Virus record (IMG/VR): IMGVR_UViG_2615840601_000001
Source of the DNA: a virus
Lineage: Duplodnaviria; Caudoviricetes
Strand: one strand, 5' to 3'
Length of the DNA: 64,000 bases
Part shown: piece after piece, positions 4,809-35,676 of the stretch
Position numbering within the stretch: position 1 is the stretch's first letter
Layout of the letters: every line of letters starts with the position of its first letter
Notes under the pieces: model-generated
Told to the model about the DNA's origin: nothing
Database searches by the model: none
The model's input: only the letters and a program-made list of their open reading frames with translations
Program-made: the position numbers and the translations under genes

Positions 4809-5831
4809 ATGACACAGACGCAAACCGCAAGGGACTGGGAACTCCCAACAAGTGCTCCAGAGATCGACGGCAATAGCCCCGGTCGCAGTTCCGCTGATCT
4901 TGATGAATGGAAGACCCTTGTAAGGAAGGTTTTCGATATCGCGCCCCAGAAAAACTGGACGAAAAGCGATGTTGCTCGCCGGATCGATATGGCGATGGGA
5001 ACCTTTAGCCAATGGTATTCGGGCAAGTACACGGGACGGCTGGATACCAATAACGCCAAAGTTCGGAAATGGCTGTCCTCGATAGAGGAAATGGACGAAC
5101 TGGCGTTGACGGTGCCGACAGGGCCGGACTTCGTGTTCACGCCAACGGCGCGTGAGATCATCGGAGCATTGCAGTTCGCCCAGCTCATGCCTGATTTTGT
5201 GACGGTTACCGCCGCCGCTGGAACTGGCAAAACGGCGGCTTGCCTTCACTATGCTCGCACTCGCCCTAACGTTTGGATGGTGACCGCTTCTCCGCACACA
5301 AAGACTGTCCACGGCATGCTTGTGGAGTTGGCGACGGAGCTTGATATCATCCAGCACAACCCCGCGAGACTTGTTCGGGCCATCGGTTCCCGACTGAAAA
5401 AATCGGGAGGCGGAACCCTGCTGATTGTGGACGAGGCTCAGAACCTTGTCGACGATGCCATCAATCAGCTCAGGCACTTTGTCGACAACTATCAATGCGG
5501 CCTCGCTCTGGTCGGCAACGATGAGATTTACACCCGCTTTGCAAAGCGTACCGACGGGCCATCCTTTGCGCAGCTCAAGCGCCGCATTGGCAAGCGAGTT
5601 CGTAAGAGCGAGCCCATGGCTGAGGACATTGAAATGATCTTGGACGGTTGGGGTGTCACTGATCCCGATGTTCGTCGGGTGCTTGTCGGGATTGGTCGAA
5701 AAGAGGGTGCGCTTGGGCAGATCGACAAAACCCTGAAACTCGCAACCATGACCGCGAATGGCGAAGGCAAGCCTGTGACGGCTGAGTTAGTCAAGCGCGC
5801 TTGGGCCAATCGTGATGTGGAGGGCCTTTGA
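4809..5831 (+). CDS. MuB-like AAA+ transposition ATPase
   Basis: N-terminal HTH, Walker A AAAGTGKT, Walker B LLIVDEAQ, GLALVGN; follows MuA. Confidence 0.92.
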   Translation: MTQTQTARDWELPTSAPEIDGNSPGRSSADLDEWKTLVRKVFDIAPQKNWTKSDVARRIDMAMGTFSQWYSGKYTGRLDTNNAKVRKWLSSIEEMDELALTVPTGPDFVFTPTAREIIGALQFAQLMPDFVTVTAAAGTGKTAACLHYARTRPNVWMVTASPHTKTVHGMLVELATELDIIQHNPARLVRAIGSRLKKSGGGTLLIVDEAQNLVDDAINQLRHFVDNYQCGLALVGNDEIYTRFAKRTDGPSFAQLKRRIGKRVRKSEPMAEDIEMILDGWGVTDPDVRRVLVGIGRKEGALGQIDKTLKLATMTANGEGKPVTAELVKRAWANRDVEGL

Positions 5832-11627: not shown

Positions 11628-13322
11628 ATGCTGACCGAACAGCAAGATCCTGATCGCGTTGCCGGTAATCCCGTCCTTGCCCGCGATGACAAGAACCTCT
11701 CTGACGACTTGCCGCGTGGCGCTGAAATTCCAAATGATCTGGATCCTTTTGCCGACGGGATTTTGATGGAGCATCAAAAGACTTGGCTTGAAGATGACAA
11801 CGATCTCAAGATTTGCGAGAAGGGCCGACGCACGGGGATCACTTTTGCAGAAGCGCTCGACGATACGCTGATCGCAGCAGCCGACGTTGCCGCTGGCGGG
11901 CAAAATGTTTTTTATATAGGCGATACCAAAGACAAGGGCCGCGAGTTTATCGGCTATGTCGCCCATTTTGCGCGGACCGTGCAAAAGGAAATGGTCGATA
12001 TCGAAGACGGTGTGTTTTTCGACATCGATGAGAATGGCAACAGCCGCGCCATTGCCACTTATGTCATTCGCTTCAAATCCGGTTTTCGTGCCGAGGCTCT
12101 ATCCTCCCGCCCCGCCAACATTCGCGGCCTTCAGGGTGTTGTCGTTATTGACGAAGCAGCGTTCCACAACGATGTGCGTGAGGTCATTGATGCGGTCAAC
12201 GCCCTGTTGATCTGGGGCGGCAAGATCCGAATAATCTCGACCCATAACGGGGTTCTGAATGCCTTTAATGAACTGATCCAAGAGGCCAAGGCAGAGCGCT
12301 CCAAGGGAAAGACCAACACCTGGTCAATTCACAAATATGCTTTTGCCGATGCCATCCGAAACGGGCTGTATAAACGTGTCTGTATGATCAAGGGCAAAGT
12401 CTGGAGCCAAGAGGCCGAGGACGAATGGGAAGCCAAGATCCGGGGCGCTTATGGGTCACGCAAAGCGTCCATGCGTCAGGAGCTGGATGCGATTGCCGCC
12501 GAGAGCGAAGGGCAGGCTCTGAGCCGCGTGCAAATCGAGCATTGTATGGTCAAGGGCATCCCGGTTGTTCGTTGGGAGCAGCCGGACAATTTCCGGGATA
12601 AGCCCGACGCCTATCGCAAGGCCACGGTCGATGCGTTTTGCGAAACCCAACTCCTGCCACATCTGCAAAAGCTCGACCCATATTTGCGGCATGTGTTGGG
12701 GCAGGATTTTGCGCGCAAGGGCGATGCCTCTTGCATCGATATCAAATCAATCAATCGCGACCTGACCCGGCAAAGCCGCCTTGGTGTCGAGTTGCGCAAT
12801 ATCCCGTTCGAAGAACAGCGCGACATTGTTTACTTCATCGTTGACCGCTTGCCTCGCTTTTCTGGCGGTGCGTGGGATGCGACCGGCAACGGTGCTTATC
12901 TCGCAGAGAAGGCCGCTCAAAAATATGGATCAAATGCCGTTGAGGTTCATTTCTCTCAAAGCTGGTACAAGGAAAACACACCTGCCTATATCGAGTCCTT
13001 TGGATCGGTTCGATCGAACCTGCTTCCGGCCGACGAGGATATCGTCAAGGACCATCAGGCGCTTGCCTATGTTGACGGCATCATCAAGGTGCCACAGGAC
13101 TTTCGCTTTAAGGGAACCGACGGGCACATGCGGCACGGTGACTATGCGCTGGCATCGATGCTGGCCTATTGGGTGAGCTTTCAGGACATTGCGGAATATA
13201 GCTATCAGTCGGTCTCGTCATTGAGCGCTGAAGGGAAATTGCATTCTGACGACGACGACAGCCCGAGGGGCACAATCTTCGGGCGGTCGTCTGTCTTTGG
13301 CAAAATGAGAGGGCTTTGGTAA
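11628..13322 (+). CDS. Mu gp28-like terminase large subunit
   Basis: EKGRRTGIT, VVIDEAAF, ISTHNG, GQDFAR, DATGNG, HGD. Confidence 0.93.
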   Translation: MLTEQQDPDRVAGNPVLARDDKNLSDDLPRGAEIPNDLDPFADGILMEHQKTWLEDDNDLKICEKGRRTGITFAEALDDTLIAAADVAAGGQNVFYIGDTKDKGREFIGYVAHFARTVQKEMVDIEDGVFFDIDENGNSRAIATYVIRFKSGFRAEALSSRPANIRGLQGVVVIDEAAFHNDVREVIDAVNALLIWGGKIRIISTHNGVLNAFNELIQEAKAERSKGKTNTWSIHKYAFADAIRNGLYKRVCMIKGKVWSQEAEDEWEAKIRGAYGSRKASMRQELDAIAAESEGQALSRVQIEHCMVKGIPVVRWEQPDNFRDKPDAYRKATVDAFCETQLLPHLQKLDPYLRHVLGQDFARKGDASCIDIKSINRDLTRQSRLGVELRNIPFEEQRDIVYFIVDRLPRFSGGAWDATGNGAYLAEKAAQKYGSNAVEVHFSQSWYKENTPAYIESFGSVRSNLLPADEDIVKDHQALAYVDGIIKVPQDFRFKGTDGHMRHGDYALASMLAYWVSFQDIAEYSYQSVSSLSAEGKLHSDDDDSPRGTIFGRSSVFGKMRGLW

Positions 13323-14854
13323 TGGCGGAACAACAGGCGGTTATTTACGACCTCTATGGCAAGCCGATGCGCGTGGAGAAAAAGGCGCTGGCGAGCGACA
13401 CGGTGCCGGTGCGCAATTTCACGTCAAAGTTCACAGAGAGCTTTTCGAGTGAGATTACGCCGCAAAGGCTCAAGCGCATTTTGGCCTCTGCCGCCAACGG
13501 ACAGCCCGACGAGTTCCTCAAAATGGCGGAACTCATGGAAGAAGAGGACGCCCATTATGCGGCCGTTCTGGGAAGTCGCAAACGGGCTGTCAGCTCAATA
13601 GAGCCCGTCATTGAACATGGCGGGGAAGGTCCAAAGGCGTCTGAGATTGGCGCCGCGGTGGAGCAGCTCATCGAGCAACCCCAGTTCTATGACATGTTGG
13701 ACGATGCACTCGACGCCTTGGGCAAGGGCTATGCTGTCATTGAACAGACTTGGAGCATCAATGGAAAGTATCTGATGCCGAGCGTGTTCACATGGCTTGA
13801 TCCACGCTTGTTCATGTTTGCCAAAGAGCAGCGCAAGACCTTGCGGCTGAAGGTTGACGGCGACGTGGACGGCGAAGAATTGATGGCCGGAAAATTCATT
13901 GTCCATATGCCACGGCTAAAATCAGGATTGCAGATCCGCACCGGGCTCGCTCGCGTTGCCGCTTGGGCCTATATGCTGAAGTCGTTCACCTTGCGCGGTT
14001 GGGCTGGTTACAATGAAGTGTTCGGCATGCCGTTACGGATTGGCAAGTACGACAAGGCGTCCAGCTATGAGGACCGGGCTACATTGTTGCGGGCGGTTGT
14101 TGGGATCGCCAATGACGCGGCGGGCATCATCGACAAGAATATGGATATCGAATTCATTTCCAACCCGTCGCGAGGTGGCGACTCTGTCTTTGAAAAATTT
14201 GCTGAGTATCTCGACAAGCAAATCTCGAAGGGCGTCCTTGGCCAAACCATGACGACCGATGATGGATCAAGCCTTGCGCAAGCCCAAGTGCACAATGAGG
14301 TGCGGATCGATATCCAGCAGTCCGACGCCCGGCAGCTTGCCGCTACGATCAACCGCGATGTGATCCGTCCCTTTGTCGATATCAACTTTGGTCAGCAAGA
14401 CCGTTATCCGAAATTCACGCTTCCGATCAGCGTGCCCGAAGACCTCAAGCTTATGTCTGAGACGCTTGAGAATTTGGTGCCGCTTGGCCTTGAGGTTAGC
14501 ATGGCAGAGGTCCGCGAACGGATCAGCTTTTCTGATCCCGACAAAAACGCCGTGCTTTTGAAGTCGCCGGGAAGCACCACGAAAGCGGAAAAGCTCAATC
14601 GCCAAGTGGCGCTGGCAAGGAAAAAACCTTCGATCGAGTTTGACGATATTGGCCTTGAGGAGCTTGATGCATGGGAAGAGCAGCTCGGCCCTATGATTGA
14701 GCCGATCCAATTGCTTGCAAAGAGCGCGGGGTCGAAAGAGGAATTTATCGCCGGGTTGGCCGAACTGGTGAGCACCATGGATGACGAAGCAATGTCTCAG
14801 GCGATTGTTGATGCGGGCCAGAAGGCGCACGCCTTTGGGGATGACAAAGGTTAG
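13322..14854 (+). CDS. Mu gp29-like portal protein (DUF935)
   Basis: EVFGMPLRIGKY, ISKGVLGQTMTT, AQVHNEVR. Confidence 0.93.
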   Translation: MAEQQAVIYDLYGKPMRVEKKALASDTVPVRNFTSKFTESFSSEITPQRLKRILASAANGQPDEFLKMAELMEEEDAHYAAVLGSRKRAVSSIEPVIEHGGEGPKASEIGAAVEQLIEQPQFYDMLDDALDALGKGYAVIEQTWSINGKYLMPSVFTWLDPRLFMFAKEQRKTLRLKVDGDVDGEELMAGKFIVHMPRLKSGLQIRTGLARVAAWAYMLKSFTLRGWAGYNEVFGMPLRIGKYDKASSYEDRATLLRAVVGIANDAAGIIDKNMDIEFISNPSRGGDSVFEKFAEYLDKQISKGVLGQTMTTDDGSSLAQAQVHNEVRIDIQQSDARQLAATINRDVIRPFVDINFGQQDRYPKFTLPISVPEDLKLMSETLENLVPLGLEVSMAEVRERISFSDPDKNAVLLKSPGSTTKAEKLNRQVALARKKPSIEFDDIGLEELDAWEEQLGPMIEPIQLLAKSAGSKEEFIAGLAELVSTMDDEAMSQAIVDAGQKAHAFGDDKG

Positions 14855-14857
14855 GCT

Positions 14858-16042
14858 GTGGCAGATTTCAGGATCCGCAATGCACCTTCCAAGGAGGTGA
14901 CCCGCTATCTAAGCGGCAAGGGCATCAAGCCCTCGTTTCATTGGCGAGATGTCAGTCCACGCGAGCATGCTTTCGCTTTCACCATCGCCAAGATGACCAA
15001 GTTGGATTTGTTGATCGACACACATGCGTCGCTCAACAAGGCTCTGACAGACGGCACGCCGTTCAAGGCATGGGCAAAAGAGATTGCACCGCACCTTGCC
15101 AAAGAGGGGTGGTGGGGCAAAAAGGAGATGATCGATCCAAAGACTGGTGAGACCATCATTGCGCAGTTGGGCAGCCCCCGAAGGCTTAAGACCATCTACT
15201 GGGCGAACACGCGCAGCGCACGCGCGGCGGGGCTTTGGGAACGTGCTCAACGCACCAAGAAAGCGTTGCCCTATTTTGCCTATCGGTTGGGGCCGTCTGA
15301 ACGCCACCGCCCCCACCATGCGTCGAAGGCCGGTGTGATCCTGCCAGTCGATGACCCGTTCTGGGATGCTTGGTTCCCACCGAACGGCTGGATGTGCAAA
15401 TGCTGGATAGAGCAGATTACGCGTTACCGGGCTAACAAGCTTGGCGGCGAGAGTGAGCGACCGGAAATCGAGATGGTTGAGGAAACCAACCCGCGAACCG
15501 GTGAGACAGTCAGCATCCCGAAAGGTGTGTCATTCGGTTGGCATGGCAACCCCGGCAAGAACCGCGCTCAAACACTGGTCGATAATCTTAATCTGAAACT
15601 GGAGAATGCCGGGGCAATCACTCCGGCCTTGCCCAAAGCCATTATCAAGGAATTTTGGCAATCAAGAGCGCCCGAGGCCTATAGCCAAATGTCAGAGCGC
15701 GTTCACTTGCCGGTGGCCTATGTGCCCAAATGGCAAGGCAAGCTTGATGGCAAGACACCTCTTGTTGTTGTTTCGTCCGATACCGTCTCAGTCAAGGTGG
15801 GCAAACACATGGCTGTTGAGGCAAGTGCGTTTGTCAACGTTCAGGACGTGTTGGAATTTGGTGAGGCCTATCAGAGAAAGGGACGACGAGACACGACGGT
15901 GTTTCATCGTGTTGATGGTGTATGGTGGGCAGTCGCTTTGCAGCGGTCCAAAGACGGATATTTCTATATCGCGACATTCTTCAGAACCAGCTCGGGCTAT
16001 GTGCAGCGGTTTCGAGATAACCATGTGTTGATTGATTTTTAG
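14858..16042 (+). CDS. MuF head morphogenesis protein with C-terminal PBECR-like nuclease extension
   Basis: AFTIAK, RLKTIYWAN, DDPFWDAWFPPNGWMCKC; extra ~150-aa C-terminal domain (VVSSDT..K..KH...FYIATFFR). Confidence 0.85.
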   Translation: MADFRIRNAPSKEVTRYLSGKGIKPSFHWRDVSPREHAFAFTIAKMTKLDLLIDTHASLNKALTDGTPFKAWAKEIAPHLAKEGWWGKKEMIDPKTGETIIAQLGSPRRLKTIYWANTRSARAAGLWERAQRTKKALPYFAYRLGPSERHRPHHASKAGVILPVDDPFWDAWFPPNGWMCKCWIEQITRYRANKLGGESERPEIEMVEETNPRTGETVSIPKGVSFGWHGNPGKNRAQTLVDNLNLKLENAGAITPALPKAIIKEFWQSRAPEAYSQMSERVHLPVAYVPKWQGKLDGKTPLVVVSSDTVSVKVGKHMAVEASAFVNVQDVLEFGEAYQRKGRRDTTVFHRVDGVWWAVALQRSKDGYFYIATFFRTSSGYVQRFRDNHVLIDF

Positions 16043-17784: not shown

Positions 17785-18684
17785 ATGGAAATTACTGGTG
17801 TAAACCTGAGCGACCTCGGGACGGGCTTCAGTGCTGCCTACGAAGGCGGTTTCAGCGGCGTTAAGACGAGTTATGACAAAGTCGCCGATGTCGTGCCCTC
17901 GACTGGGTCCGAGAATACCTATGCTTGGCTCAAGGACTGGCCCGCTCTTCGTGAATGGATCGGTGATCGCAAGATCAAGCAGCTTGAAGGCGAGAGTTAC
18001 CGTCTGGGCAACAAGAAATTCGAAAGCACTGTTGCGATCAATGCCGATGATATCAACGATGACAAATACGGCATTTATACTCCGCGCTTCAAAGCGATGG
18101 GTATTGCGGCCGCGCAGTGGAAAGACCGCCTTGTCTGGCCACTAATGCCTTTGGGTTTTGAAGCCGTTTGTTTTGATGGTCAAAAATTCTTTGATGCTGA
18201 CCATCCGGTGGGCAGTAAAGAAAATGGCAACTTCACCACCGTTTCAAATATGCAGGCAGGTACGGGCAATCCTTGGTTCCTGCTTGATACCAATCAGGCT
18301 TTGAAGCCTTTCATTCTTCAGATGCGCCAAGAGCCTGAATTCAACTCTCTGACCGATGGCGATACGTCTGAGCGTGTCTTTATGCGCGATGAGTATCTCT
18401 ATGGCGTCAAAGCCCGCGCCAATGGCGGGTTTGCGTTCTGGCAGACAGCTTTCGGCTCCAAGGCTGAATTGAATGCGGCGAATTATGAGGCTGCTCGCCT
18501 TGCTATGCTGTCCCTTGAAAATGATGAAGGCGATAAGCTGGGGGTTTTGCCAAATCTCTTGGTCGTTGGTCCATCCAATGAAGCGAAGGCGCGTGCGCTG
18601 ATCGCCAAAGAGCGCCTTGCGAATGGCGAAGATAACGTTTGGTACAAATCCATTGAGATCCTCGTCTCACCTTGGCTGAAATAG
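17785..18684 (+). CDS. Mu gpT-like major capsid protein
   Basis: YAWL...LREWIGDR, CFDGQKFFDADHPV, PWFLLD, LLVVGPS. Confidence 0.93.
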   Translation: MEITGVNLSDLGTGFSAAYEGGFSGVKTSYDKVADVVPSTGSENTYAWLKDWPALREWIGDRKIKQLEGESYRLGNKKFESTVAINADDINDDKYGIYTPRFKAMGIAAAQWKDRLVWPLMPLGFEAVCFDGQKFFDADHPVGSKENGNFTTVSNMQAGTGNPWFLLDTNQALKPFILQMRQEPEFNSLTDGDTSERVFMRDEYLYGVKARANGGFAFWQTAFGSKAELNAANYEAARLAMLSLENDEGDKLGVLPNLLVVGPSNEAKARALIAKERLANGEDNVWYKSIEILVSPWLK

Positions 18685-25109: not shown

Positions 25110-26375
25110 ATGATGACTGCCGCAACTTACTATACCCGCCTCACCAATATCGGCTCCAATGCCCTCAGCGCGGCCATTACCGGTGGCGCTTCGGTTTCTC
25201 TGACCCATCTTGCTGTGGGAGACGCCGATGGTTCTAGCTATGATCCAGACGGAACGGAAACCAATCTGGTGCACGAGACACATCGGCTCAATATCACGTC
25301 TATCACGCCAGACGTTCAGAACCCGGCTTGGCTGATTGTCGAGGCAATTCTCCCGCCTGACGTGGGTGGGTGGTGGATCCGCGAGGCAGGCCTGTTTGAC
25401 GCCAATGGGGCAATGTTCGCCATCGCCAAATATCCGCCAACCTACAAGGCCATCCTTACGGATGGCACCGCCTCGACGCTCACGATCCAGATCGTCCTGC
25501 AGGTCACCAATACCGATAGCATTCAGTTGGTGGTCAACCCTCTTGACGGCTACGCCTCCCAAAACTGGGTTATATCCTCCTATCCATGGGCCAACGAAGA
25601 AGAAGTGGTAGACGCGGCGATTGAAAAGAAGCTGGTGGATCCAAAACGTTTGGCAGCCGCATTGTCACAACTCTCCTTTGCAAGGCCTGAGGATTTAACG
25701 TCCTTGTCTGAGGCAATTGATCTTGCGTTGGAAGGCAAAGCAGCACGCAATCATAACCATGCCGGGGTTTATGCGCTGGCAGCCCATAACCACGACGGTG
25801 CCTATGCGTCGATCAATCACGCTCATGATCTTCTATATGCCGCCAAAAGCCATGGTCACCAGATCAGCGAAATCAGCGGCATCAATGGCATTTTCGATTT
25901 GGCAAATGGTTTGATCGATGGCCGGTTGCCGAGCCAATTAGGCGGGGGACCTGCCGCTTCGATTACGCACGAGATGGCCAATGGAGTTGACGGAGGCTGG
26001 CTTTACGCTGGCTCTTGGCAAGTGAGGCCCTACAACACGGAAGATGATCCATTTGGATTGATCTCACTGGCCAACAACAGCTTCACGCCAGCAGCCGACC
26101 TGTATATGAGTGGATGGGCTTCTATCAACGATACCGCTCAGACCTCCTCGCGGGTTTTTTGTGTAACAGATAATGCGGTTGTTGCCGTTGGATCAGGCGG
26201 GCATTCCAACCCGACCTATTATTGCACCTCGCACACCTTTTTCTCCGCGAAGCTTACGGCAGGAAAAACCTATCGCATCGAGATGCGTGGGGCGGAAACC
26301 TCTGTTGGCTTCGGGGTTTCCATGGTGTTGGGGCAAACTGAGCTTTATTCTCAAATCGATTTCTGGAGGCGATAA
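25110..26375 (+). CDS. Tail fibre protein 2 (paralog with a different tip)
   Basis: Same tail-collar N-terminus (EAILPPDVGGWWIRE), HNH/HxH repeats, unrelated C-terminus. Confidence 0.9.
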   Translation: MMTAATYYTRLTNIGSNALSAAITGGASVSLTHLAVGDADGSSYDPDGTETNLVHETHRLNITSITPDVQNPAWLIVEAILPPDVGGWWIREAGLFDANGAMFAIAKYPPTYKAILTDGTASTLTIQIVLQVTNTDSIQLVVNPLDGYASQNWVISSYPWANEEEVVDAAIEKKLVDPKRLAAALSQLSFARPEDLTSLSEAIDLALEGKAARNHNHAGVYALAAHNHDGAYASINHAHDLLYAAKSHGHQISEISGINGIFDLANGLIDGRLPSQLGGGPAASITHEMANGVDGGWLYAGSWQVRPYNTEDDPFGLISLANNSFTPAADLYMSGWASINDTAQTSSRVFCVTDNAVVAVGSGGHSNPTYYCTSHTFFSAKLTAGKTYRIEMRGAETSVGFGVSMVLGQTELYSQIDFWRR

Positions 26376-29247: not shown

Positions 29248-31653
29248 GTGAGCAATCTTAATGCATCAATGACGCTCTCCATTCGGGATAAATGGTCCCG
29301 TGGGGCAAAGCGGTTCCAGAAAGACATGAAGGGTCTGGAAAGCTCGTCGCGCCGGTTGCGCGGCGAGTTCAAAGGCGTTTCGAACGACACTCGAAAGATG
29401 GCTCAAGCCAGTTCGGACGCCGCCCGTAAGCAGCTCAAGCTCATTTCGAATTTCAAGCAGACGCAAAAGACGCTGGCTTCGACCAGGAGCGAGTTCGATC
29501 GCGCCAAATCAGAAGTGGCCCGGCTCAAAGAGCAAATGCAGGCGATTGGTCCTCCGGTCAAAGGCTTGGAGCAAAGGCTGAACAAAGCCAACGCCACGCT
29601 AAGCCGAACCAAGGACAAATTCAGGTCGGCCGCCCAAGCCTCTCATGCCGCAAAGAACGGTTTGCGAGAAGCGGGGATTGAGGCGAAACAACTTGCCGCC
29701 ACTGAAAAGCGGCTGTCTTCCAGCCTTGATAAAGCAACGCAGGATTTGCGCGAACAGGCGGCCGCCACGCGCAAGCTCGAGGGCGAGTACCAAAGGCTTG
29801 AGCACCGCAAACGTGCCATTGCAAAGCTGACCGATCGGGAGCGAAACCGACGAAACGATCGTGCCATGCTGGGCGGAAAGATTGCCATAGCGGGGGTTAG
29901 TTCCATGATTGCCGGGCGGCAAGTGGCGCGACCTGTGGTGTCGTCAGCCAACCAGTTTGGCAACTTCGAAGAAGCCATGGACAGCGTGGCGGCCGTTGCG
30001 CGGATCAAACAGAATAGTGGCGATTACAAAGAGCTGTTTAATCTGGCTCGCGAGCTTGGCGCGACCACCAGCTATAGCGCCATTGAAGCCGCTCAAGGCA
30101 TGAACTTTCTTGCCATGGCGGGTATGGACAAAGCATCTATCAAAGCCGCTATGGCTGATGTGCTCAATCTGGCCAAAGCCACCAAGACGGATCTTGCCGC
30201 CACGGCTGATATCTCATCCAATATTCTATCAGGCTTCGGGCTGGCCCCTGAAGAAATGAACCGGGTTGCCAACGTCCTGACCGCGACCACAACGCGGGCC
30301 AATGTTGATTTGACCATGCTGGGCGAGAGCATGAAATATGCCGCCCCTATCGCCAAGCAATTGGGCGTGAGCCTTGAAGAGACCGCCGCCATGGCCGGTC
30401 TTTTGGGGAACGTGGGTATTCAAGGCTCAATGGCCGGTACCAGCTTGCGCACGATCTACACCCGTCTTGCTGCCCCGAACAAGCGGGCGCGGTCTGCGCT
30501 CAAAGCCTTGAAGGTTGAAACGAAGGATCTGAAAGGCAACCTTCTGCCTGTGCCTGATTTGCTTTTGAAGATCGCCAAAGCCAGCGAGGGTATGGGATCG
30601 GGCAAGCGTGCCGAAATGTTTAAAGACATTGTCGGGGCGGAAGCCGGATCTGCCTTTGCCTCGCTCCTTGATGAGCAGGGATTTGAGGTCTTTGAAAAAC
30701 TCTTGAAGGATCTGAAGAACGTCAAAGGGGAAGCCGCCCGCGTCGCCACTGAAATGGGCGACAACTGGATGGGTGATAAAAAGGCGCTCGGTTCGGCTAT
30801 GGCTGAGATTGCCTTGATCTTTGGCGAGTCCCTCAACCCGGCTTTGCGCGAGGCAACCCAATGGATCACAAAGCAAACACGCGCCTTCGGTGAATGGCTC
30901 AAAGCCCACCCAAAACTGACCAGAGCAATCGCTTTCACTGTGGCCGCCCTTGCTGGCTTGCTGGTCGTGGGTGGAGGGTTCTTGACCTTCATGGGCACTT
31001 CCATCGCCCTGTTGGCTGGGTTGCGGTTTGGCCTCTTTATGCTTGGCTTGAAGGCCAAAACCGGTGCCGGAGCAATCGGTTTGGTTGGCACCGCATTGAA
31101 AGCATTGGCCCCGATCAGGTGGGCGGCCTTGTTGCCTGTTGCTGGTCTTGCCAGCGTGGTTAGCAGCATAGTCTCGATCATAGGCGGGATCGGTGCTGGT
31201 TTGGTTACGGCGACGGCTCCGGTTTGGGGTATCATCGCGGCATTGGTCGCAGCCGTCGCTGGTTTTGCCTTGGCGATCTATAATTATTGGGTGCCGATTT
31301 CGGAATTTGTCGGTGGGTTTGCTGACGTCATTGGCGATGCTTTGTCGTCAATGGTTGCCATGTCGCGCACCGTCAAGCGCCACGCAGCAAGCGCCGCCCT
31401 TGCGACCAGTATCGCGGCCGCTCCAATGGCGGCGACGGCCGCGCCATCGATATTGCCTTCTCTGGCGGCCGCAGAAGCCACCGCCGCAGGCAAGACCGAT
31501 AGAAAGATAGAGCTCAATGTATCGGTTCCGATCGGCTCTATCACGGCAAGCGACCCCAACATCGAGGCCCGTGTTCAGCAAGCCATTCACGCCGGTGTTG
31601 AAGAGGCCGTTGAACGGGCTTTGGCCCGCCTCTCTGACCGGCTCGGAGACTGA
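29248..31653 (+). CDS. Tail tape measure protein (TP901-like core)
   Basis: ARELGATTSYSA.EAAQG..FLAMAG, LGESMKYAAP, GIQGSMAGT. Confidence 0.93.
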   Translation: MSNLNASMTLSIRDKWSRGAKRFQKDMKGLESSSRRLRGEFKGVSNDTRKMAQASSDAARKQLKLISNFKQTQKTLASTRSEFDRAKSEVARLKEQMQAIGPPVKGLEQRLNKANATLSRTKDKFRSAAQASHAAKNGLREAGIEAKQLAATEKRLSSSLDKATQDLREQAAATRKLEGEYQRLEHRKRAIAKLTDRERNRRNDRAMLGGKIAIAGVSSMIAGRQVARPVVSSANQFGNFEEAMDSVAAVARIKQNSGDYKELFNLARELGATTSYSAIEAAQGMNFLAMAGMDKASIKAAMADVLNLAKATKTDLAATADISSNILSGFGLAPEEMNRVANVLTATTTRANVDLTMLGESMKYAAPIAKQLGVSLEETAAMAGLLGNVGIQGSMAGTSLRTIYTRLAAPNKRARSALKALKVETKDLKGNLLPVPDLLLKIAKASEGMGSGKRAEMFKDIVGAEAGSAFASLLDEQGFEVFEKLLKDLKNVKGEAARVATEMGDNWMGDKKALGSAMAEIALIFGESLNPALREATQWITKQTRAFGEWLKAHPKLTRAIAFTVAALAGLLVVGGGFLTFMGTSIALLAGLRFGLFMLGLKAKTGAGAIGLVGTALKALAPIRWAALLPVAGLASVVSSIVSIIGGIGAGLVTATAPVWGIIAALVAAVAGFALAIYNYWVPISEFVGGFADVIGDALSSMVAMSRTVKRHAASAALATSIAAAPMAATAAPSILPSLAAAEATAAGKTDRKIELNVSVPIGSITASDPNIEARVQQAIHAGVEEAVERALARLSDRLGD

Positions 31654-32057: not shown

Positions 32058-32281
32058 TTCGCGCTCATGACGGCGAGCTGCTCGAGGAGCTGATCATGCG
32101 CCACTATGGCCGCCAGTCGGTGACGCTTGTTGAGCTGGTTCGGTCGCACGTCAAGAACCGCCCTTTGAACCGGCCTAACAGCCCGATCGCGCTTGATATG
32201 ACTATCGAGGTTTGGTGCCCCGATGCGCCGTTGAGTGAGACGCCGAACATCACGCCATTCAGTCAAAGTCTGGATGATTGA
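32045..32281 (+). CDS. P2 gpX-like tail protein
   Basis: DGE.L..LI.RHYG; between U and D. Confidence 0.75.
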   Translation: MAILVRAHDGELLEELIMRHYGRQSVTLVELVRSHVKNRPLNRPNSPIALDMTIEVWCPDAPLSETPNITPFSQSLDD

Positions 32282-32283
32282 GC

Positions 32284-33273
32284 ATGAACCTTTATGCCTC
32301 CATCGCCGGGAGAAATATCAGCTCCTATTTGACCAACCTTCTGGGGCAAGGCCGCTTGATGGATCTGACCATCACGGATGAAGTGAGCGGCAAGGCTGAT
32401 AAAGCTTCTTTGACTGTGGTGCGTGACGGCACGATGCAGCCGCCGCCTGAGCAGTCAGAATTGGTTTTTGCGTTGCCCGATCGGGCGGGCATGTTGCGGC
32501 CAATGGGCACCTACTATTCCGACGCGCCAAAGACTTCGGGTGCCAAGTCATCAGGCCACAAAATGAGCCTGTCCGGTACCACAGCGAACATGGCGAACAA
32601 GCTCAAGGAAAAGCGCACGGACAGCTACGACCAGAAGACTGTGAAAGACGTTGTTGGCAAGGTCGCTGGGCGGCAAGGCCTCGCCCCTGTTGTCAGCAAG
32701 GCCCTTGGCTCGATGAAGATCCCCCACAAGGATCAGGTCAATGTCAGTGACATGCACTTCCTCAAGACATGGGCGGCCGATCTGGGGGCATTCTTCAAGA
32801 TCAAAGATGGCAAGATCTTCTTTCTGGAGAACGGCAGCGCCAAGACCGCAAGCGGCGCTCCAATGTTACCGGTGAGCTGCATCGGGACCGAGATAATCTC
32901 CTATTCATGGTCTGGCGGCAAACGCGAAAAGTACAAATCCGCCAAGGCGGCTTGGCACGATCAAGCCAAATCAGAACGCATGTTTGAGACGGCTGGATCA
33001 GGCACGCCAGAGCTTTCTTTGACCAAGACTTATGCGAGCAAGGAGGAAGCCAAAAAGGCGGCGGCCTCAGCGTTGAAAGAGGCAAGCGTCAAGGATGACA
33101 AATGCACGATAACGGTGCCCGGTGACGCAAGCCTGAGAGCAGGCGGCGAGTATATTATCCCGCCGTTCATTCAGCCCGAATTGTCCGGCTCTTGGTTCAT
33201 CGCCAAGGCCATTCACAAAGTGAGTAAATCAAGCGGGTATCTGACCACGCTTTCATTGGAGAGAAAGAGATGA
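32284..33273 (+). CDS. P2 gpD-like baseplate hub / late control protein
   Basis: LTITDE.SG.AD, DQ...SD.HFL...A..LGA..KIK. Confidence 0.88.
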   Translation: MNLYASIAGRNISSYLTNLLGQGRLMDLTITDEVSGKADKASLTVVRDGTMQPPPEQSELVFALPDRAGMLRPMGTYYSDAPKTSGAKSSGHKMSLSGTTANMANKLKEKRTDSYDQKTVKDVVGKVAGRQGLAPVVSKALGSMKIPHKDQVNVSDMHFLKTWAADLGAFFKIKDGKIFFLENGSAKTASGAPMLPVSCIGTEIISYSWSGGKREKYKSAKAAWHDQAKSERMFETAGSGTPELSLTKTYASKEEAKKAAASALKEASVKDDKCTITVPGDASLRAGGEYIIPPFIQPELSGSWFIAKAIHKVSKSSGYLTTLSLERKR

Positions 33274-33416
33274 TGAAGCGCAGCAAAACTGCCGAAGCAA
33301 GGATGAGCGAAGCGGCTTTGACCATAATGATTGTCGCGCTGCTTCTTGTCTGCTCGATCCTGATCGGCGTGGGCTGGTCGGCCCTCCAGTTCATTCAATG
33401 GGTGGGCTGGGTTTGA
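33270..33416 (+). CDS. 48-aa membrane protein (below ORF-track cutoff)
   Basis: ATGA overlap with gpD stop; long hydrophobic stretch ALTIMIVALLLVCSILIGVGW. Confidence 0.5.
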   Translation: MMKRSKTAEARMSEAALTIMIVALLLVCSILIGVGWSALQFIQWVGWV

Positions 33417-33587: not shown

Positions 33588-33788
33588 ATGGAGTCTATCC
33601 GTTGTAGTGCCTGTCAGGCATTGCTGTTTAAAACCGAAGAAAAGGCCATCTCCGGCCGGATTGAAATCAAGTGTCGGAGATGCCGAACAATCAATCATTT
33701 GAGGCCAGCAGAGCCCGAAACTGATTGCCTAGAGCAACCAGCTATCGGAGAAAAATCTTGTGGCTCTATGTCCCACTCGAAACCCTGA
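33588..33788 (+). CDS. com: Com-family zinc-finger translational regulator
   Basis: IRCSACQALLF...IEIKCRRCRTIN; overlaps the start of the methylase as in Mu com-mom. Confidence 0.9.
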   Translation: MESIRCSACQALLFKTEEKAISGRIEIKCRRCRTINHLRPAEPETDCLEQPAIGEKSCGSMSHSKP

Positions 33789-34681
33789 AATCAATCCCTT
33801 CAACGGTCTTTCCCTCTGCTCCGGATTTGGAGGTTTGGAACTCGGCCTGCATGTCGCACAACCCGAATATCGAACTGTGTGTTATGTCGAGCAAGAAGCT
33901 TTTGCAGCGGCCACCCTCGTGGCACGGATGGAAGATCAGGCCTTGGATCACGCGCCTGTCTGGTCCAATGTTAAGTCCTTCGACGGCCGCCCGTGGCGTG
34001 GCAAAGTTCATATCCTCACTGCAGGATATCCATGTCAGCCTTTCTCAGCCTCCGGCCTTCAAAAAGGAAAGAAAGACCCCCGCCACCTTTGGCCAGAAGT
34101 GGCCCGCATTATCAGAGAATGTAGCCCCGAATGGGTCTTCTGCGAAAATGTCGAAGGACATTTGGACCGTGGATTTGACGAAGTTGCCCTCGAGCTACAA
34201 AGCATGGGCTTTACAGTCAAAGCAGGCTTGTTCTCGGCGGCTGAAGTTGGTGCGTCCCACCTCCGGCGCCGGCTCTTCATTCTGGCCCACGCCAACAACT
34301 GCGCCGAACGGCAACCGGGCCGAGTTTCGGATGTGCAGGGAGAAGGGGTTGCGGATTGTTCCGGCAATCGATCAAGCTGGCTCTCAGATTGGGATAGTCA
34401 ACTCTGCTCGCATCTGGACAACTCTTTGGATCCTGACACAAGCTCTGGGCATGGTCCCGAACGGATCGAGCCACTTCCCATATTCGCGCCAGCTCCATGT
34501 GACTTTGAGACCTGGAAGCGGATCCTCACCCGGCGAGAGGACCTACAACCTGAATTTTTCGGACTGGATGATGGGTTGGCCAATCGGATGGAGCGAACCA
34601 GGGCAGCCGGTAACGGAGTGGTCAGCTTGGCTGCTGCATATGCGTATGTCTCTCTCCGAGCTGCTTTCGAGGGTTGATTGA
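33725..34681 (+). CDS. Overlapping alternative-frame ORF, probable second methyltransferase subunit (true start uncertain)
   Basis: 318 stop-free codons with FWPTPTT and motif IX-like LNFSDWMMGWPIGW. Confidence 0.6.
   Translation: MPRATSYRRKILWLYVPLETLKSIPSTVFPSAPDLEVWNSACMSHNPNIELCVMSSKKLLQRPPSWHGWKIRPWITRLSGPMLSPSTAARGVAKFISSLQDIHVSLSQPPAFKKERKTPATFGQKWPALSENVAPNGSSAKMSKDIWTVDLTKLPSSYKAWALQSKQACSRRLKLVRPTSGAGSSFWPTPTTAPNGNRAEFRMCREKGLRIVPAIDQAGSQIGIVNSARIWTTLWILTQALGMVPNGSSHFPYSRQLHVTLRPGSGSSPGERTYNLNFSDWMMGWPIGWSEPGQPVTEWSAWLLHMRMSLSELLSRVD
33760..34677 (+). CDS. C5-cytosine DNA methyltransferase, catalytic chain (mom position)
   Basis: Motif I LCSGFGG, IV GYPCQPFS, VI ENV, VIII HLRRRLF, X AAGNGV; motif IX not evident in this frame. 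Confidence 0.9.
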   Translation: MALCPTRNPEINPFNGLSLCSGFGGLELGLHVAQPEYRTVCYVEQEAFAAATLVARMEDQALDHAPVWSNVKSFDGRPWRGKVHILTAGYPCQPFSASGLQKGKKDPRHLWPEVARIIRECSPEWVFCENVEGHLDRGFDEVALELQSMGFTVKAGLFSAAEVGASHLRRRLFILAHANNCAERQPGRVSDVQGEGVADCSGNRSSWLSDWDSQLCSHLDNSLDPDTSSGHGPERIEPLPIFAPAPCDFETWKRILTRREDLQPEFFGLDDGLANRMERTRAAGNGVVSLAAAYAYVSLRAAFEG

Positions 34682-34902
34682 TAGGCGCTTCAAGATCGGT
34701 TCGGAGGGGCTTCGAGCCGGTCGCTCTGCTTTAGCGAAAGGGTGGTTAACCTCGCTGAGGAGCTTCAATTGGCCTTCAAAAGTAGTTTAGTGCTCAGTGA
34801 AAGGCATTTTACCGCGAGCTTTAATAAGCGGCCCTCGCCGATTTTCAATTATGATTTTAGCCTTTGCTCGCCAAATTGATAGTAATGCGCATTCTAAGAA
34901 AA

Positions 34903-35676
34903 TCAGTAGTCATACCAAACTTCATATTCTCGAGAGGTAGCCGCCGAACGTGCGCCCTTGCTTAAGTTGCAACTTGAGCAAGTCAATTGTAGGTTGGTTA
35001 TGCAGTTCATCCCTCCATGTGCCAATGGAATAATATGGTCATAGTGGATCTGCGACTGTTGGCTGAACAGCTTAGTGAGGTCCGTCTGACAGAGTACGCA
35101 TCGCCCCTTGTCTCTATGAAACACGGCATTCTCTGCCCATTTTGGGATTGAAGCTCGAATTAGGTGACCTGCGTCGTTGAATGCTTCTGGCACGAACGAT
35201 GGAGCTGTTTCCAAGACGTAGCTTCTTACCATATGTCCAAATGCAGACATCGTTCCGCGATTTGAGAACAACACGTAAAAAACCTGCTTCGATATTGTCT
35301 CACACAGCTCGGTAATTAGGTCTTCTTGCTGTAGAGCGTCCAGATACTCGTAACCGTCGAATCGGCCAAACTTCGAAGGGGTAATTGATGAGTAGTCAAA
35401 GCTATTTGACTGGAGTAGATAATCGACCCAGTATTCACCTGGACTGCGCTCGGCAATTTCGGCGTCCTCAAAGATCACGCTTGAAATGAGCTCTTCCACG
35501 AAGGCATGAAAACAGGTCCACTTGGAATACCTTTGCGCTAGAGCGGCTGACGACATATCACCGAATATGTCCTCGATATTCCGAAGGTATCTGTCAGGGT
35601 GCCGTGTCACGCCGTCAACCATCTGGCAAATGAAGTAGAGATCGGTAGTCGATACCAACTGGAGCTGTGAAACCAA
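34903..35676 (-). CDS. HNH endonuclease with uncharacterised N-terminal domain (candidate defence cargo)
   Basis: VFHRDKGRCVLC...HYDHIIPLAHGGMN...NLQLTCSSCNLSKG. Confidence 0.88.
   Translation of the reverse strand: MVSQLQLVSTTDLYFICQMVDGVTRHPDRYLRNIEDIFGDMSSAALAQRYSKWTCFHAFVEELISSVIFEDAEIAERSPGEYWVDYLLQSNSFDYSSITPSKFGRFDGYEYLDALQQEDLITELCETISKQVFYVLFSNRGTMSAFGHMVRSYVLETAPSFVPEAFNDAGHLIRASIPKWAENAVFHRDKGRCVLCQTDLTKLFSQQSQIHYDHIIPLAHGGMNCITNLQLTCSSCNLSKGARSAATSREYEVWYDY

What the first reader, a model, noticed from the sequence alone, without database searches (positions are those of the whole stretch)
33588..34681. Com-controlled cytosine methyltransferase written in two overlapping reading frames
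Seen: two same-strand frames are both open for more than 900 nt. One carries motifs I-VIII and X with a featureless variable region. The other carries WPTP and the motif IX-like FSDWMMGWP over that same region. Established: M.EcoHK31I is a heterodimer whose motif IX chain is encoded in an alternative frame inside the main gene. Inference: a two-chain enzyme replaces mom. Com-regulated translation would have to yield both chains, and the specificity chain may be overlooked in annotation.
Basis: partly seen in the sequence, partly recalled or inferred. Interest (0 to 1): 0.7.

Follow-up and report, generated by a model that had tools for sequence, protein, structure and literature searches.

The report
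Methyltransferase gene read in two frames
A prophage enzyme that methylates DNA appears to be assembled from two proteins encoded by the same DNA read in two frames; this is known from one E. coli enzyme, but here the overlap covers the whole gene and recurs in many phages.

Summary
Window 33760-34677 (frame A, 305 aa) and 33758-34681 (frame +1, 307 aa) are both open; the third frame has 12 stops. Frame A carries the catalytic motifs of a C5 cytosine methyltransferase and the GNGVV motif, joined by an unconserved stretch. Frame B reads that stretch as conserved WPTP and NxxFxxWMMGWPxGW motifs.

Among 80 relatives, 78 keep frame B open. Between motif I and WPTP, frame B has 0 stops in 76 genes, against 74 expected from synonymous shuffling; control genes showed 783 against 773. 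Codon-position variability switches B, A, B, A along the gene.

In 76 of 80 sequences frame B begins with a start codon within 5 nt of the frame-A start, followed by W-[LIT]-[YFH]-x-P. The same +1 overlap occurs in Paenibacillus, Mycobacterium and Acidovorax phages.

Context is the right end of a Mu-like prophage, behind a com gene.

Best reading: an M.EcoHK31I-like two-chain enzyme in mom's place, with both chains started from one Com-guarded ribosome site. Translation of frame B, the heterodimer and Com control are inferred, not shown. Verdict: a new variant of a known kind.

The parts
33588..33788 (+). com gene (66 aa zinc ribbon). It is in the third frame relative to the methyltransferase and ends 26-28 nt after the two methyltransferase start codons.
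   Evidence: Pfam PF10122 Zn_ribbon_Com, E 4.5e-9, 36.1 bits against a cut-off of 22.9. Com-like ORFs lie upstream in 34 of 76 sequences, 32 of them in frame +2 relative to frame A.
33725..33737 (+). Small RNA hairpin TTGC-CTAGA-GCAA between the com zinc-ribbon coding part and the ribosome site. Candidate Com target (inferred).
   Evidence: Found at -33 from the frame-B start. A 4-bp hairpin with at least 3 G-C pairs starts at -35..-30 in 24 of 35 relatives, against 13% of shuffles, with 11 different stem sequences. The window's own stem has only 2 G-C pairs and is not among the 24.
33747..33750 (+). Shine-Dalgarno-like GGAG, 7 nt before the frame-B TTG and 9 nt before the frame-A GTG.
   Evidence: Sequence. 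A purine-rich block stands at the same place in the alignment of 35 relatives.
33758..34681 (+). Frame B ORF (beta chain, 307 aa plus stop). It starts at TTG 33758 with N-terminus (M)WLYVP, continues with an unconstrained leader to about residue 135, then carries the WPTP module and a motif IX-like block.
   Evidence: 0 stops. The start codon plus W[LIT][YFH]xP is conserved in 76 of 80 sequences. Frame-B codon signature in the first 6 codons and at motif IX. Hits phrog_1008 'DNA methyltransferase' at E 9.4e-14.
33760..34677 (+). Frame A ORF (alpha chain, 305 aa). Motif I is at 33814-33834, PCQ motif IV at 34024-34044, ENV at 34144-34152, RRRLFILAH at 34264-34290. An unconserved linker follows, then GNGVV (motif X) at 34609-34623.
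   Evidence: Pfam PF00145 at E 2e-31, aa 14-180 only. Full-length homologs at 54-70% identity. No invariant or near-invariant column between H177 and P240.
34283..34300 (+). WPTPTT in frame B, overlapping the end of frame-A motif VIII. This is the start of the presumed target-recognition module.
   Evidence: W, T and P are invariant in 37 frame-B sequences. More distant relatives carry 2-5 repeats of W[PA]TP here, while frame A reads charged low-complexity sequence.
34547..34594 (+). Motif IX-like block NLNFSDWMMGWPIGWS in frame B.
   Evidence: N, F, G, W, W are invariant in 37 sequences. Nucleotide entropy by frame-B codon position is 0.44/0.59/1.01, so the third position is the freest.
34694..34732 (+). 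Terminator-like hairpin and T-rich tail just after both stop codons; the end of the com-methyltransferase unit.
   Evidence: 13-pair stem, 7 G-C pairs. This is a pattern match only; 2 such sites were found in the region against 2.3 expected from shuffles.

Best explanation
The last gene of this Mu-like prophage is a C5 cytosine DNA methyltransferase made of two chains, both encoded by the same ~920 nt in two frames.

Frame A gives alpha. It holds the AdoMet-binding and catalytic domain (motifs I-VIII), then a roughly 70-residue unconstrained linker, then the motif X helix.

Frame +1 gives beta. It starts with a conserved N-terminal peptide (M)WLYVP, continues with about 130-170 residues that are constrained only to stay free of stops, and ends with the WPTP target-recognition module and motif IX.

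Both chains start at one ribosome site: GGAG, then TTG at 33758 for beta and GTG at 33760 for alpha. The site lies behind a com gene and a small conserved hairpin, so a single Com-dependent opening of that site would release both chains. Alpha and beta then associate, as in M.EcoHK31I, and methylate phage DNA late in infection, taking the protective role that Mom has in Mu.

Shown here: both ORFs, their conservation, stop avoidance, the frame-specific selection signatures, the paired starts, the com gene and the prophage context.

Inferred: that frame B is translated from the 5' start, that the chains bind, that Com regulates them, and the biological role.
For: 1. Frame B is open in 78 of 80 relatives, while frame +2 has 6-30 stops each.

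2. There are 0 frame-B stops in the N-terminal segment of 76 genes, against 73.9 expected. A whole-gene shuffle on 75 genes gave 95.3 expected. Flanking genes show no such avoidance: 783 observed against 773 expected.

3. In the stretch between motif VIII and motif X, frame A has no invariant or near-invariant residue from H177 to P240. Frame B has invariant W176, T178, P179, W220, G253, N264, F267, G273, W274 and W278.

4. Nucleotide variability by codon position switches along the gene (34 sequences). In the motif I-VIII segment, frame A reads 0.62/0.43/1.08. At motif IX, frame B reads 0.44/0.59/1.01. In the motif X region, frame A reads 0.71/0.72/1.06. In the first six codons, frame B reads 0.75/0.42/1.01.

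5. In 76 of 80 sequences a frame-B start codon is followed by W[LIT][YFH]xP and lies within 5 nt of a frame-A start. The forms are NTGTGGCT, ATGGCGTGGCT and ATGCATGACCTGG. Where the nearest upstream frame-B stop is only 8-29 nt away, this is the first available start.

6. The same +1 overlap occurs in three other lineages. In Paenibacillus phage Tadhana it spans 705 nt at GC 0.49, and both CDS are annotated as methyltransferase. In Mycobacterium phage OwlsT2W it spans 552 nt. In Acidovorax phage Alfacinha1 it spans 1131 nt with ATGTGGCTCTACAT at the start.

7. M.EcoHK31I shows that such a pair works as a two-chain enzyme (passages in PMC2836561, and PMC3404938).

8. The last 171 residues of beta fold with mean pLDDT 77 on an 83-sequence alignment.

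9. Com is present, a hairpin with varied stems lies upstream, and the setting is a Mu-like prophage.
Against: There is no direct evidence that frame B is translated here.

A leader of about 130-170 residues with no amino-acid-level constraint and pLDDT below 50 over residues 1-142 is an odd thing for a cell to make.

In the Paenibacillus and Mycobacterium phages frame B has stops upstream and must start internally, so a 5' start is not general.

The beta model matches no solved fold (Foldseek best E 2.4; VIA best Z 3.1). A beta profile finds no PDB chain at E up to 10 and no relevant Pfam family. Calling its conserved block 'motif IX' therefore rests on my recalled consensus and its spacing.

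Two of 80 relatives have a premature frame-B stop.

com is absent upstream in 42 of 76 relatives, so Com is not required for the dual-frame design.

The start region's fold is no more stable than shuffles (z = -0.36).

The papers read place the M.EcoHK31I target-recognition domain in alpha; my reading puts it in beta.
Confidence: 0.75

Rival explanations
1. The enzyme is two-chain, but beta starts internally, as in M.EcoHK31I and the Paenibacillus and Mycobacterium phages. One candidate is ATG 34148, which would give a 177-aa chain. On this reading the open 5' half of frame B and the paired start are not used to make the functional beta.
For: Internal starts are forced in two other lineages. 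In M.EcoHK31I, internal Met codons of beta can serve as starts, and up to 67 N-terminal residues could be removed from zinc-finger-fused beta with activity kept (passages in PMC2836561). The leader shows no amino-acid-level constraint and is predicted disordered. ATG 34148 would give a chain similar in size to the 183-aa OwlsT2W beta.
Against: No internal frame-B start is conserved. The best positions hold ATG in only 44-47% of relatives, because they depend on a synonymous T/C in frame A. This reading cannot explain 0 against 74 expected stops in the 5' half. It also cannot explain the conserved start codon plus WLYxP with a frame-B codon signature.
Confidence: 0.17
2. There is one polypeptide, made by two programmed ribosomal frameshifts: +1 after motif VIII into the WPTP/motif IX frame, then -1 back before motif X. 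This would restore the usual motif order of a monomeric C5 methyltransferase.
For: Reading A, then B, then A reproduces the canonical order VIII, variable region, IX, X (order recalled). A database protein, P0261, joins a frame-A N-terminus (PF00145, residues 1-148) to a frame-B-type C-terminus.
Against: Frameshifting would not need frame A to stay open through the middle, nor frame B to stay open through the 5' half. Both are kept open in 78 of 80 relatives and 76 of 76 genes respectively, and also at GC 0.49 in a Paenibacillus phage. Frame B has its own conserved start. I saw no stop, rare-codon or homopolymer signal at the junction (inspection only). P0261 lacks motifs VIII and X and may simply be an indel or a sequencing error.
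Confidence: 0.05
3. Frame B is not coding. It is open only through G+C content, codon usage and inheritance from a common ancestor, and alpha works alone.
For: For the window alone the case is weak. Synonymous shuffles leave the N segment stop-free in 6.7% of trials and the C segment in 14%. Several high-GC relatives have few expected stops.
Against: The family-wide counts are 0 against 73.9 expected, with controls at 783 against 773. Frame B is better conserved than frame A in the middle of the gene. A frame-B codon signature is present. The overlap persists at GC 0.49. M.EcoHK31I is a working precedent.
Confidence: 0.03

Closest known systems
M.EcoHK31I (E. coli; recognises YGGCCR), a natural alpha/beta C5 methyltransferase
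   Same: The second chain is encoded on the same strand in another frame of the main gene. Alpha carries motifs I-VIII and X, beta carries motif IX, and both are needed for activity (passages in PMC2836561, and PMC3404938).
   Different: There, beta lies entirely inside alpha and the papers place the target-recognition domain in alpha. Here the frame-B ORF runs from 2 nt before the alpha start to 4 nt after its stop and has a conserved 5' start. Conservation places the WPTP recognition module in beta. The setting is an orphan prophage gene behind com, not a restriction-modification system. I could not compare sequences because M.EcoHK31I was not available to the tools.
Nested pairs of 'DNA-cytosine methyltransferase' CDS in Paenibacillus larvae phages (e.g. 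Tadhana gp54/gp55)
   Same: The frame relation is the same (+1). The alpha layout is the same (I-VIII, junk-like linker, GNAV). Beta has the same features (WGTP/WATP/WPTP, then LNPDWVECLMGFPIGWT).
   Different: Beta is 234 aa, starts internally at alpha codon 68 and ends before motif X. Frame B has stops upstream. There is no com. The passages I read from the genome paper (PMC6070908) list two methyltransferase genes without comment on the overlap.
M.AquI, a two-subunit C5 methyltransferase
   Same: A C5 methyltransferase split into two chains within the variable region (passage in PMC3404938).
   Different: As I recall, its subunits are separate, non-overlapping genes. Its small chain carries both IX and X, whereas here X stays with alpha.
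Phage Mu com-mom module
   Same: A Com zinc-ribbon gene overlaps the start of the last late gene at the right end of a Mu-type genome. That gene modifies DNA (Mu biology recalled).
   Different: The regulated gene is a C5 cytosine methyltransferase, not Mom. Two start codons in two frames sit at the regulated site. The Com target is not shown.
Monomeric C5 methyltransferases (M.HhaI, M.HaeIII, Dcm)
   Same: The catalytic motifs match (PF00145 E 2e-31; FGG, PCQ, ENV, GNGV).
   Different: Only profile positions 1-164 of 324 match. The TIGR00675 score of 86.1 is below its cut-off of 100.65. The small domain and motif IX are missing from that chain.

Membership tests
C5 cytosine DNA methyltransferase (Pfam PF00145 / Dcm superfamily) | AdoMet-binding motif I (FxGxG) and the catalytic Pro-Cys of motif IV | tested here: met
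   Frame A reads LCSGFGG and GYPCQPF. PF00145 scores E 2e-31 and 110 bits against a cut-off of 22. Both motifs are invariant in 23 homologs.
C5 cytosine DNA methyltransferase (Pfam PF00145 / Dcm superfamily) | Motifs VI (ENV), VIII and X (GNxV) in the same chain | tested here: met
   E129-N130-V131, R169/R171/F173 and G284-N285-G286-V287 are invariant in frame A. Motif names are recalled.
C5 cytosine DNA methyltransferase (Pfam PF00145 / Dcm superfamily) | Variable/target-recognition region and motif IX in the same chain, giving a full-length profile match | tested here: not met
   The Pfam match stops at profile position 164 of 324. TIGR00675 scores 86.1 bits, below its cut-off of 100.65. Frame A has no conserved residue from H177 to P240.
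M.EcoHK31I-type two-chain C5 methyltransferase | A second chain encoded on the same strand in an alternative frame of the main gene | tested here: met
   The frame +1 ORF is at 33758-34681. It is open in 78 of 80 relatives, with stop avoidance of 0 against 73.9 expected.
M.EcoHK31I-type two-chain C5 methyltransferase | The small chain supplies motif IX | tested here: inconclusive
   The conserved frame-B block NPxFxExxMGWPxGW has the spacing of the recalled motif IX consensus (TPRExxRLQGFP). A frame-B profile finds no PDB chain and no methyltransferase Pfam family, and fold searches gave no match.
M.EcoHK31I-type two-chain C5 methyltransferase | The second ORF lies entirely inside the first | tested here: not met
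   Frame B starts 2 nt before the alpha start and ends 4 nt after its stop. The 5' start is conserved in 76 of 80 sequences.
M.EcoHK31I-type two-chain C5 methyltransferase | Both chains required for methylation; physical heterodimer | not testable with these tools
M.EcoHK31I-type two-chain C5 methyltransferase | Sequence homology to M.EcoHK31I alpha and beta | not testable with these tools
   The M.EcoHK31I sequence was not on hand, and the 1995 paper (PMC306636) is not held.
Mu com-mom type translational control | A Com zinc-ribbon protein gene directly upstream of, or overlapping, the regulated gene | tested here: met
   PF10122 at E 4.5e-9. com 33588-33788 overlaps both start codons. Com-like ORFs are present in 34 of 76 sequences.
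Mu com-mom type translational control | An RNA hairpin bound by Com next to a structure that masks the start site | tested here: inconclusive
   A hairpin stands at -35..-30 in 24 of 35 relatives against 13% of shuffles, with 11 stem variants. RNAalifold gave no consensus on the unanchored alignment. The start-region fold has z = -0.36. Upstream-to-start complementarity of 6 nt or more occurs in 83% against 56% of shuffles.
Mu com-mom type translational control | The regulated gene is mom | tested here: not met
   The gene is a PF00145 methyltransferase.

The most novel reading that the evidence does not exclude
The whole ~920-nt gene is translated in two frames from two competing start codons 2-5 nt apart at one ribosome site. 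One mRNA segment then yields a catalytic chain whose middle is filler and a recognition chain whose first half is filler, each being the off-frame reading of the other's domain.

On this reading the design is ancient and shared by a very large set of phage and prophage C5 methyltransferases in Proteobacteria, with internal-start versions in Firmicute phages and actinophages. Start-codon competition sets the chain ratio. In Mu-like prophages one Com switch releases both chains. Much of what databases call 'hypothetical protein', or even 'DNA methyltransferase' (phrog_1008), would then be this second frame.
Probability: 0.5. Interest if true: 0.8.

Novelty: new variant of a known kind. Interest (0 to 1): 0.66.

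Why it matters
Long same-strand overlapping genes in bacteria and phages are rare and often doubted. Here a complete overlap of about 300 codons has strong comparative support and a clear functional rationale: the two structural domains of one enzyme are written in two frames.

It gives a tractable system for three questions. How do two frames share constraint? The switching codon signature is directly visible. How can one ribosome site feed two frames? How can a single regulator (Com) control two chains?

There is also a practical side. Methyltransferase specificity predictions and phage annotations that use only the frame-A protein miss the chain that most likely reads the DNA sequence. No Pfam or NCBIfam model exists for that chain. 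At least one phage record names the second frame, rather than the catalytic frame, as the methyltransferase.

Tried and rejected

- Sequence links from frame B to known folds or families. tblastn against phages found no match. A profile against PDB found 0 hits at E up to 10. Pfam on 37 members gave only scattered chance-level hits. NCBIfam gave none.

- Fold of beta. The full-length model was poor (mean pLDDT 52). The C-terminal 171 residues modelled better (pLDDT 77) but matched nothing. Foldseek's best E was 2.4. The best VIA-align Z was 3.1, and those rows cover the N-terminal helix only. This is no evidence of a new fold.

- ESM Atlas: the nearest clusters are unnamed 'hypothetical protein' clusters of 114-152 aa, scoring 0.95-0.96. 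This is a lead only.

- RNAalifold on the start-region alignment predicted no pairs. The window's start region folds no better than shuffles. My first hairpin score did not separate real from shuffled sequences well (5.2 against 3.9). Only the position-restricted test did.

- A conserved internal frame-B start was looked for and not found.

- Literature. I ran seven searches: 'EcoHK31I' (7 papers); cytosine methyltransferase with overlapping, reading frame and Paenibacillus; Mu-like, com, cytosine methyltransferase, mom; overlapping gene, methyltransferase, alternative reading frame, motif IX; heterodimeric, AquI; RcapMu; overprinting, DNA methyltransferase, prophage. None produced a paper describing this family-wide or whole-gene overlap. 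The library lacks most subscription journals and REBASE. The 1995 M.EcoHK31I paper is not held, and supplements were not available.

- One Pfam call failed because a reference contained a stop codon, and I did not repeat it.
Full report
**What is in the window**

ORF listing and direct reading confirm three overlapping same-strand ORFs:
- com at 33588-33788;
- frame A at 33760-34677 (305 aa, GTG start);
- frame +1, which I call frame B, open from 33725 to 34681.

Over the frame-A gene, frame B has no stop and the third frame has 12 (GC 0.56).

Frame A matches Pfam DNA_methylase (PF00145) at E 2e-31, but only over aa 14-180, which is profile positions 1-164 of 324. Further on it carries GNGVV. 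Frame B has no Pfam hit at E up to 1. It reads WPTPTT at 34283-34300 and NLNFSDWMMGWPIGWS at 34547-34594. com matches Zn_ribbon_Com at E 4.5e-9. The motif numbers I use (I, IV, VI, VIII, IX, X) are recalled labels.

**Frame A is a real, full-length, conserved protein**

A search of 5.8 billion proteins gave 5,904 hits at E up to 0.001 among the 8,000 candidates scored. The best 120 are 268-340 aa, 54-70% identical to the query (leaving aside its own entry) and cover 83-100% of it. Where they carry a name it is 'DNA cytosine methyltransferase', mostly from Alphaproteobacteria such as Roseibium, Labrenzia, Agrobacterium and Rhizobium.

In an alignment of 23 of them, the N-terminal 177 residues and the last ~65 residues hold many invariant positions. 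Between H177 and P240 there is not one invariant or near-invariant column, and indels are frequent. The gene is therefore not a frameshifted wreck. Frame A is read through, but its middle is unconstrained as protein.

**Frame B is conserved exactly where frame A is not**

I fetched 80 related loci from species genomes. 600 stretches matched the patterns, 520 encode a relative, and the best 80 were kept. One locus (L005) could not be delimited by my motif pattern.

In the other 79 plus the window, frame +2 has 6-30 stops per gene. Frame +1 has a premature stop in only two, L022 and L031.

Frame-B translations align well. W, T and P of WPTP, then a Q, W, G, G, and then N-P-x-F-x-E-x-x-M-G-W-P-x-G-W are invariant or nearly so in 37 sequences. 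In more distant relatives the insertions in this region are extra W[PA]TP repeats in frame B, while frame A reads charged low-complexity sequence.

**Stop avoidance extends over the whole gene**

The surprise is that frame B is also open across the catalytic half.

- Between motif I and WPTP I found 0 frame-B stops in 76 genes (12,061 codons). Shuffling synonymous codons within that segment predicts 73.9.
- An earlier whole-gene shuffle on 75 genes predicted 95.3.
- As a control I took 198 pieces of 155 codons from flanking ORFs of the same loci. They have 783 frame +1 stops against 773 expected, and only 5% of pieces have none.

The genes are related, so the counts are not independent. Even so, the contrast is large, and the control shows no general codon-context bias.

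**Frame-specific selection switches along the gene**

On codon alignments of 34 close relatives I measured nucleotide entropy by codon position.

| Segment | Frame | Entropy at positions 1/2/3 | Signature |
|---|---|---|---|
| First six codons | B | 0.75/0.42/1.01 | frame B |
| Motif I-VIII | A | 0.62/0.43/1.08 | frame A |
| WPTP-to-motif-IX stretch | B | 1.16/1.09/1.33 | weak, frame B |
| Motif IX block | B | 0.44/0.59/1.01 | frame B |
| Motif X region | A | 0.71/0.72/1.06 | frame A |

In the WPTP-to-motif-IX stretch the signal is weak, but amino-acid entropy is also lower in frame B (1.98) than in frame A (2.34).

The frame-B leader (residues 16-135) has its second position freest (0.39/1.07/0.56). 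That means no amino-acid-level constraint, only stop avoidance.

**Paired start codons**

In 76 of 80 sequences, frame B begins with a start codon followed by W-[LIT]-[YFH]-x-P, within 5 nt of a frame-A start. Three forms occur:
- NTGTGGCT, with TTG, ATG or GTG for frame B and then GTG for frame A, as in the window (TTG 33758, GTG 33760);
- ATGGCGTGGCT;
- ATGCATGACCTGG.

Where the nearest upstream frame-B stop lies only 8-29 nt away, this codon is the first available start. In the window a GGAG at 33747-33750 lies 7 and 9 nt before the two starts. A purine-rich block stands at the same place in the relatives.

This explains why frame B must stay open from the 5' end.

**The design occurs in distant phages**

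| Phage | Overlap | What is seen |
|---|---|---|
| Paenibacillus phage Tadhana | 705 nt, GC 0.49, third frame 15 stops | Two nested CDS both named DNA-cytosine methyltransferase. The inner one (234 aa) is in the +1 frame and carries WGTP, WATP, WPTP and LNPDWVECLMGFPIGWT. Frame B has stops upstream, so beta must start internally. |
| Mycobacterium phage OwlsT2W | 552 nt | gp71 (237 aa) has the same alpha layout. An unannotated 183-aa +1 ORF carries WRTPVARDYKG and NPTWLAWLMGFPVEW. |
| Acidovorax phage Alfacinha1 | 1131 nt | The CDS annotated 'cytosine-specific methyltransferase' is the frame-B type ORF (MWLYIPS...). The catalytic frame starts 2 nt later within ATGTGGCTCTACAT. |

Other database evidence:
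- The window's frame B hits phrog_1008, annotated 'DNA methyltransferase', at E 9.4e-14.
- A frame-B profile finds 4,447 cluster representatives at E up to 0.001 among 1.84 billion.
- Of ten such hits scanned, nine have no Pfam family. One (P0261) is a frame-A N-terminus fused to a frame-B C-terminus.
- A word-based search found 33 frame-B-like proteins, unnamed or 'hypothetical'.
- No NCBIfam model hits any of four beta-type ORFs.

**Precedent**

Passages in PMC2836561 and PMC3404938 state that M.EcoHK31I needs an alpha and a beta chain. Beta is encoded entirely in another frame within alpha. Alpha holds motifs I-VIII, X and the predicted recognition domain, and beta holds motif IX. The original 1995 paper was not held, and I had no M.EcoHK31I sequence to compare.

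**Context and control**

The gene ends a Mu-like prophage. Its genes include a MuA-type transposase (3176-4741), the MuB-type transposition protein (4809-5831), terminase, portal, Mu F-type minor head protein, Mu-type major head protein, tail fibre and tape measure. A weak GPD baseplate hit lies at 32278-33273. The methyltransferase follows com, which is the place mom holds in Mu (recalled).

Com-like ORFs precede the gene in 34 of 76 sequences, 32 of them in the third frame. The other relatives lack com yet keep the two frames.

A small hairpin (33725-33737 in the window) recurs at -35..-30 in 24 of 35 relatives, against 13% of shuffles, with 11 stem variants. It is a candidate Com site. Evidence for a start-masking structure is weak.

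A terminator-like hairpin follows at 34694-34722.

**Structure**

- Full-length frame B folds poorly, with residues 1-142 below pLDDT 50.
- Its last 171 residues fold at mean pLDDT 77 on an 83-sequence alignment.
- That model matches no solved chain.

The identification of frame B's block as motif IX, and of WPTP as the recognition module, therefore rests on conservation, position and recalled consensus.

**Verdict**

The most likely mechanism is a two-chain C5 methyltransferase of the M.EcoHK31I kind (about 0.9 for two chains by whatever start). In this clade the second frame is most likely read from a start codon paired with the first (about 0.6), under a com gene in Mu-like prophages.

Rivals are an internal start for beta, a double programmed frameshift, and a non-coding frame B.

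I rate it a new variant of a known kind. The whole-gene overlap with paired starts, the recognition module in beta, the link to com and the breadth across phages were not found in the literature I could search.

Noticed in passing
window 33758-33788: All three forward frames are coding here: the com tail, the frame-A start and the frame-B start. The com tail reads ...CGS..., which is the third-frame reading of the conserved TGTGGCTCT. Because com ends 26-28 nt after the two starts, termination-reinitiation coupling is an alternative to, or an addition to, Com binding.
   Followed up: partly
window 34903-35676 (- strand): A 257-aa protein with a C-terminal HNH nuclease domain (PF14279 E 3.6e-10, PF01844 E 1.5e-9). 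It lies in a lower-GC stretch (0.46-0.49) just beyond the prophage's right end and is transcribed convergently with the methyltransferase. It may be host or island DNA.
   Followed up: no
window 33270-33416 (+): A 48-aa hydrophobic ORF (MMKRSKTAEARMSEAALTIMIVALLLVCSILIGVGWSALQFIQWVGWV). Its start overlaps the stop of the GPD-like baseplate gene, and it lies between the tail genes and com. It looks like a small membrane protein of unknown role.
   Followed up: no
window about 1500-34750: A complete-looking Mu-like prophage: MuA-type transposase 3176-4741, MuB-type protein 4809-5831, terminase 11628-13322, portal 13316-14854, Mu F-like protein 14858-16042, major head 17785-18684, tail fibre 25110-26375 and tape measure 29248-31653. 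I did not map its ends or any target-site duplication.
   Followed up: partly
L082 1526-2659 (Acidovorax phage Alfacinha1 gp46): The CDS annotated 'cytosine-specific methyltransferase' is the second-frame (beta-type) ORF. The catalytic frame, starting at GTG 1528, is not annotated. phrog_1008 'DNA methyltransferase' also matches the window's frame B, not frame A.
   Followed up: partly
P0261 (378-aa database protein): A natural or artefactual fusion. The N-terminus is a frame-A methyltransferase (PF00145, residues 1-148). It then runs straight into frame-B-type sequence (WPTA..., WATP..., LNPLFVEWLMGWPIGWT) and lacks motifs VIII and X. It may be a 1-nt indel or a sequencing error.
   Followed up: no
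L022 and L031: These are the only two of 80 relatives with a frame-B stop between WPTP and the motif IX block. They may be decaying copies or assembly errors (L031 is from a metagenome bin).
   Followed up: no
L038-L080 (mostly Rhodobacterales relatives): In these, frame B starts with ATG and reads M-x-W-L-Y-L-P-P. The P-P so close to the start is a known kind of ribosome-pausing sequence (recalled), and could affect which of the two start codons following ribosomes use. These loci lack com and carry 2-5 W[PA]TP repeats.
   Followed up: no
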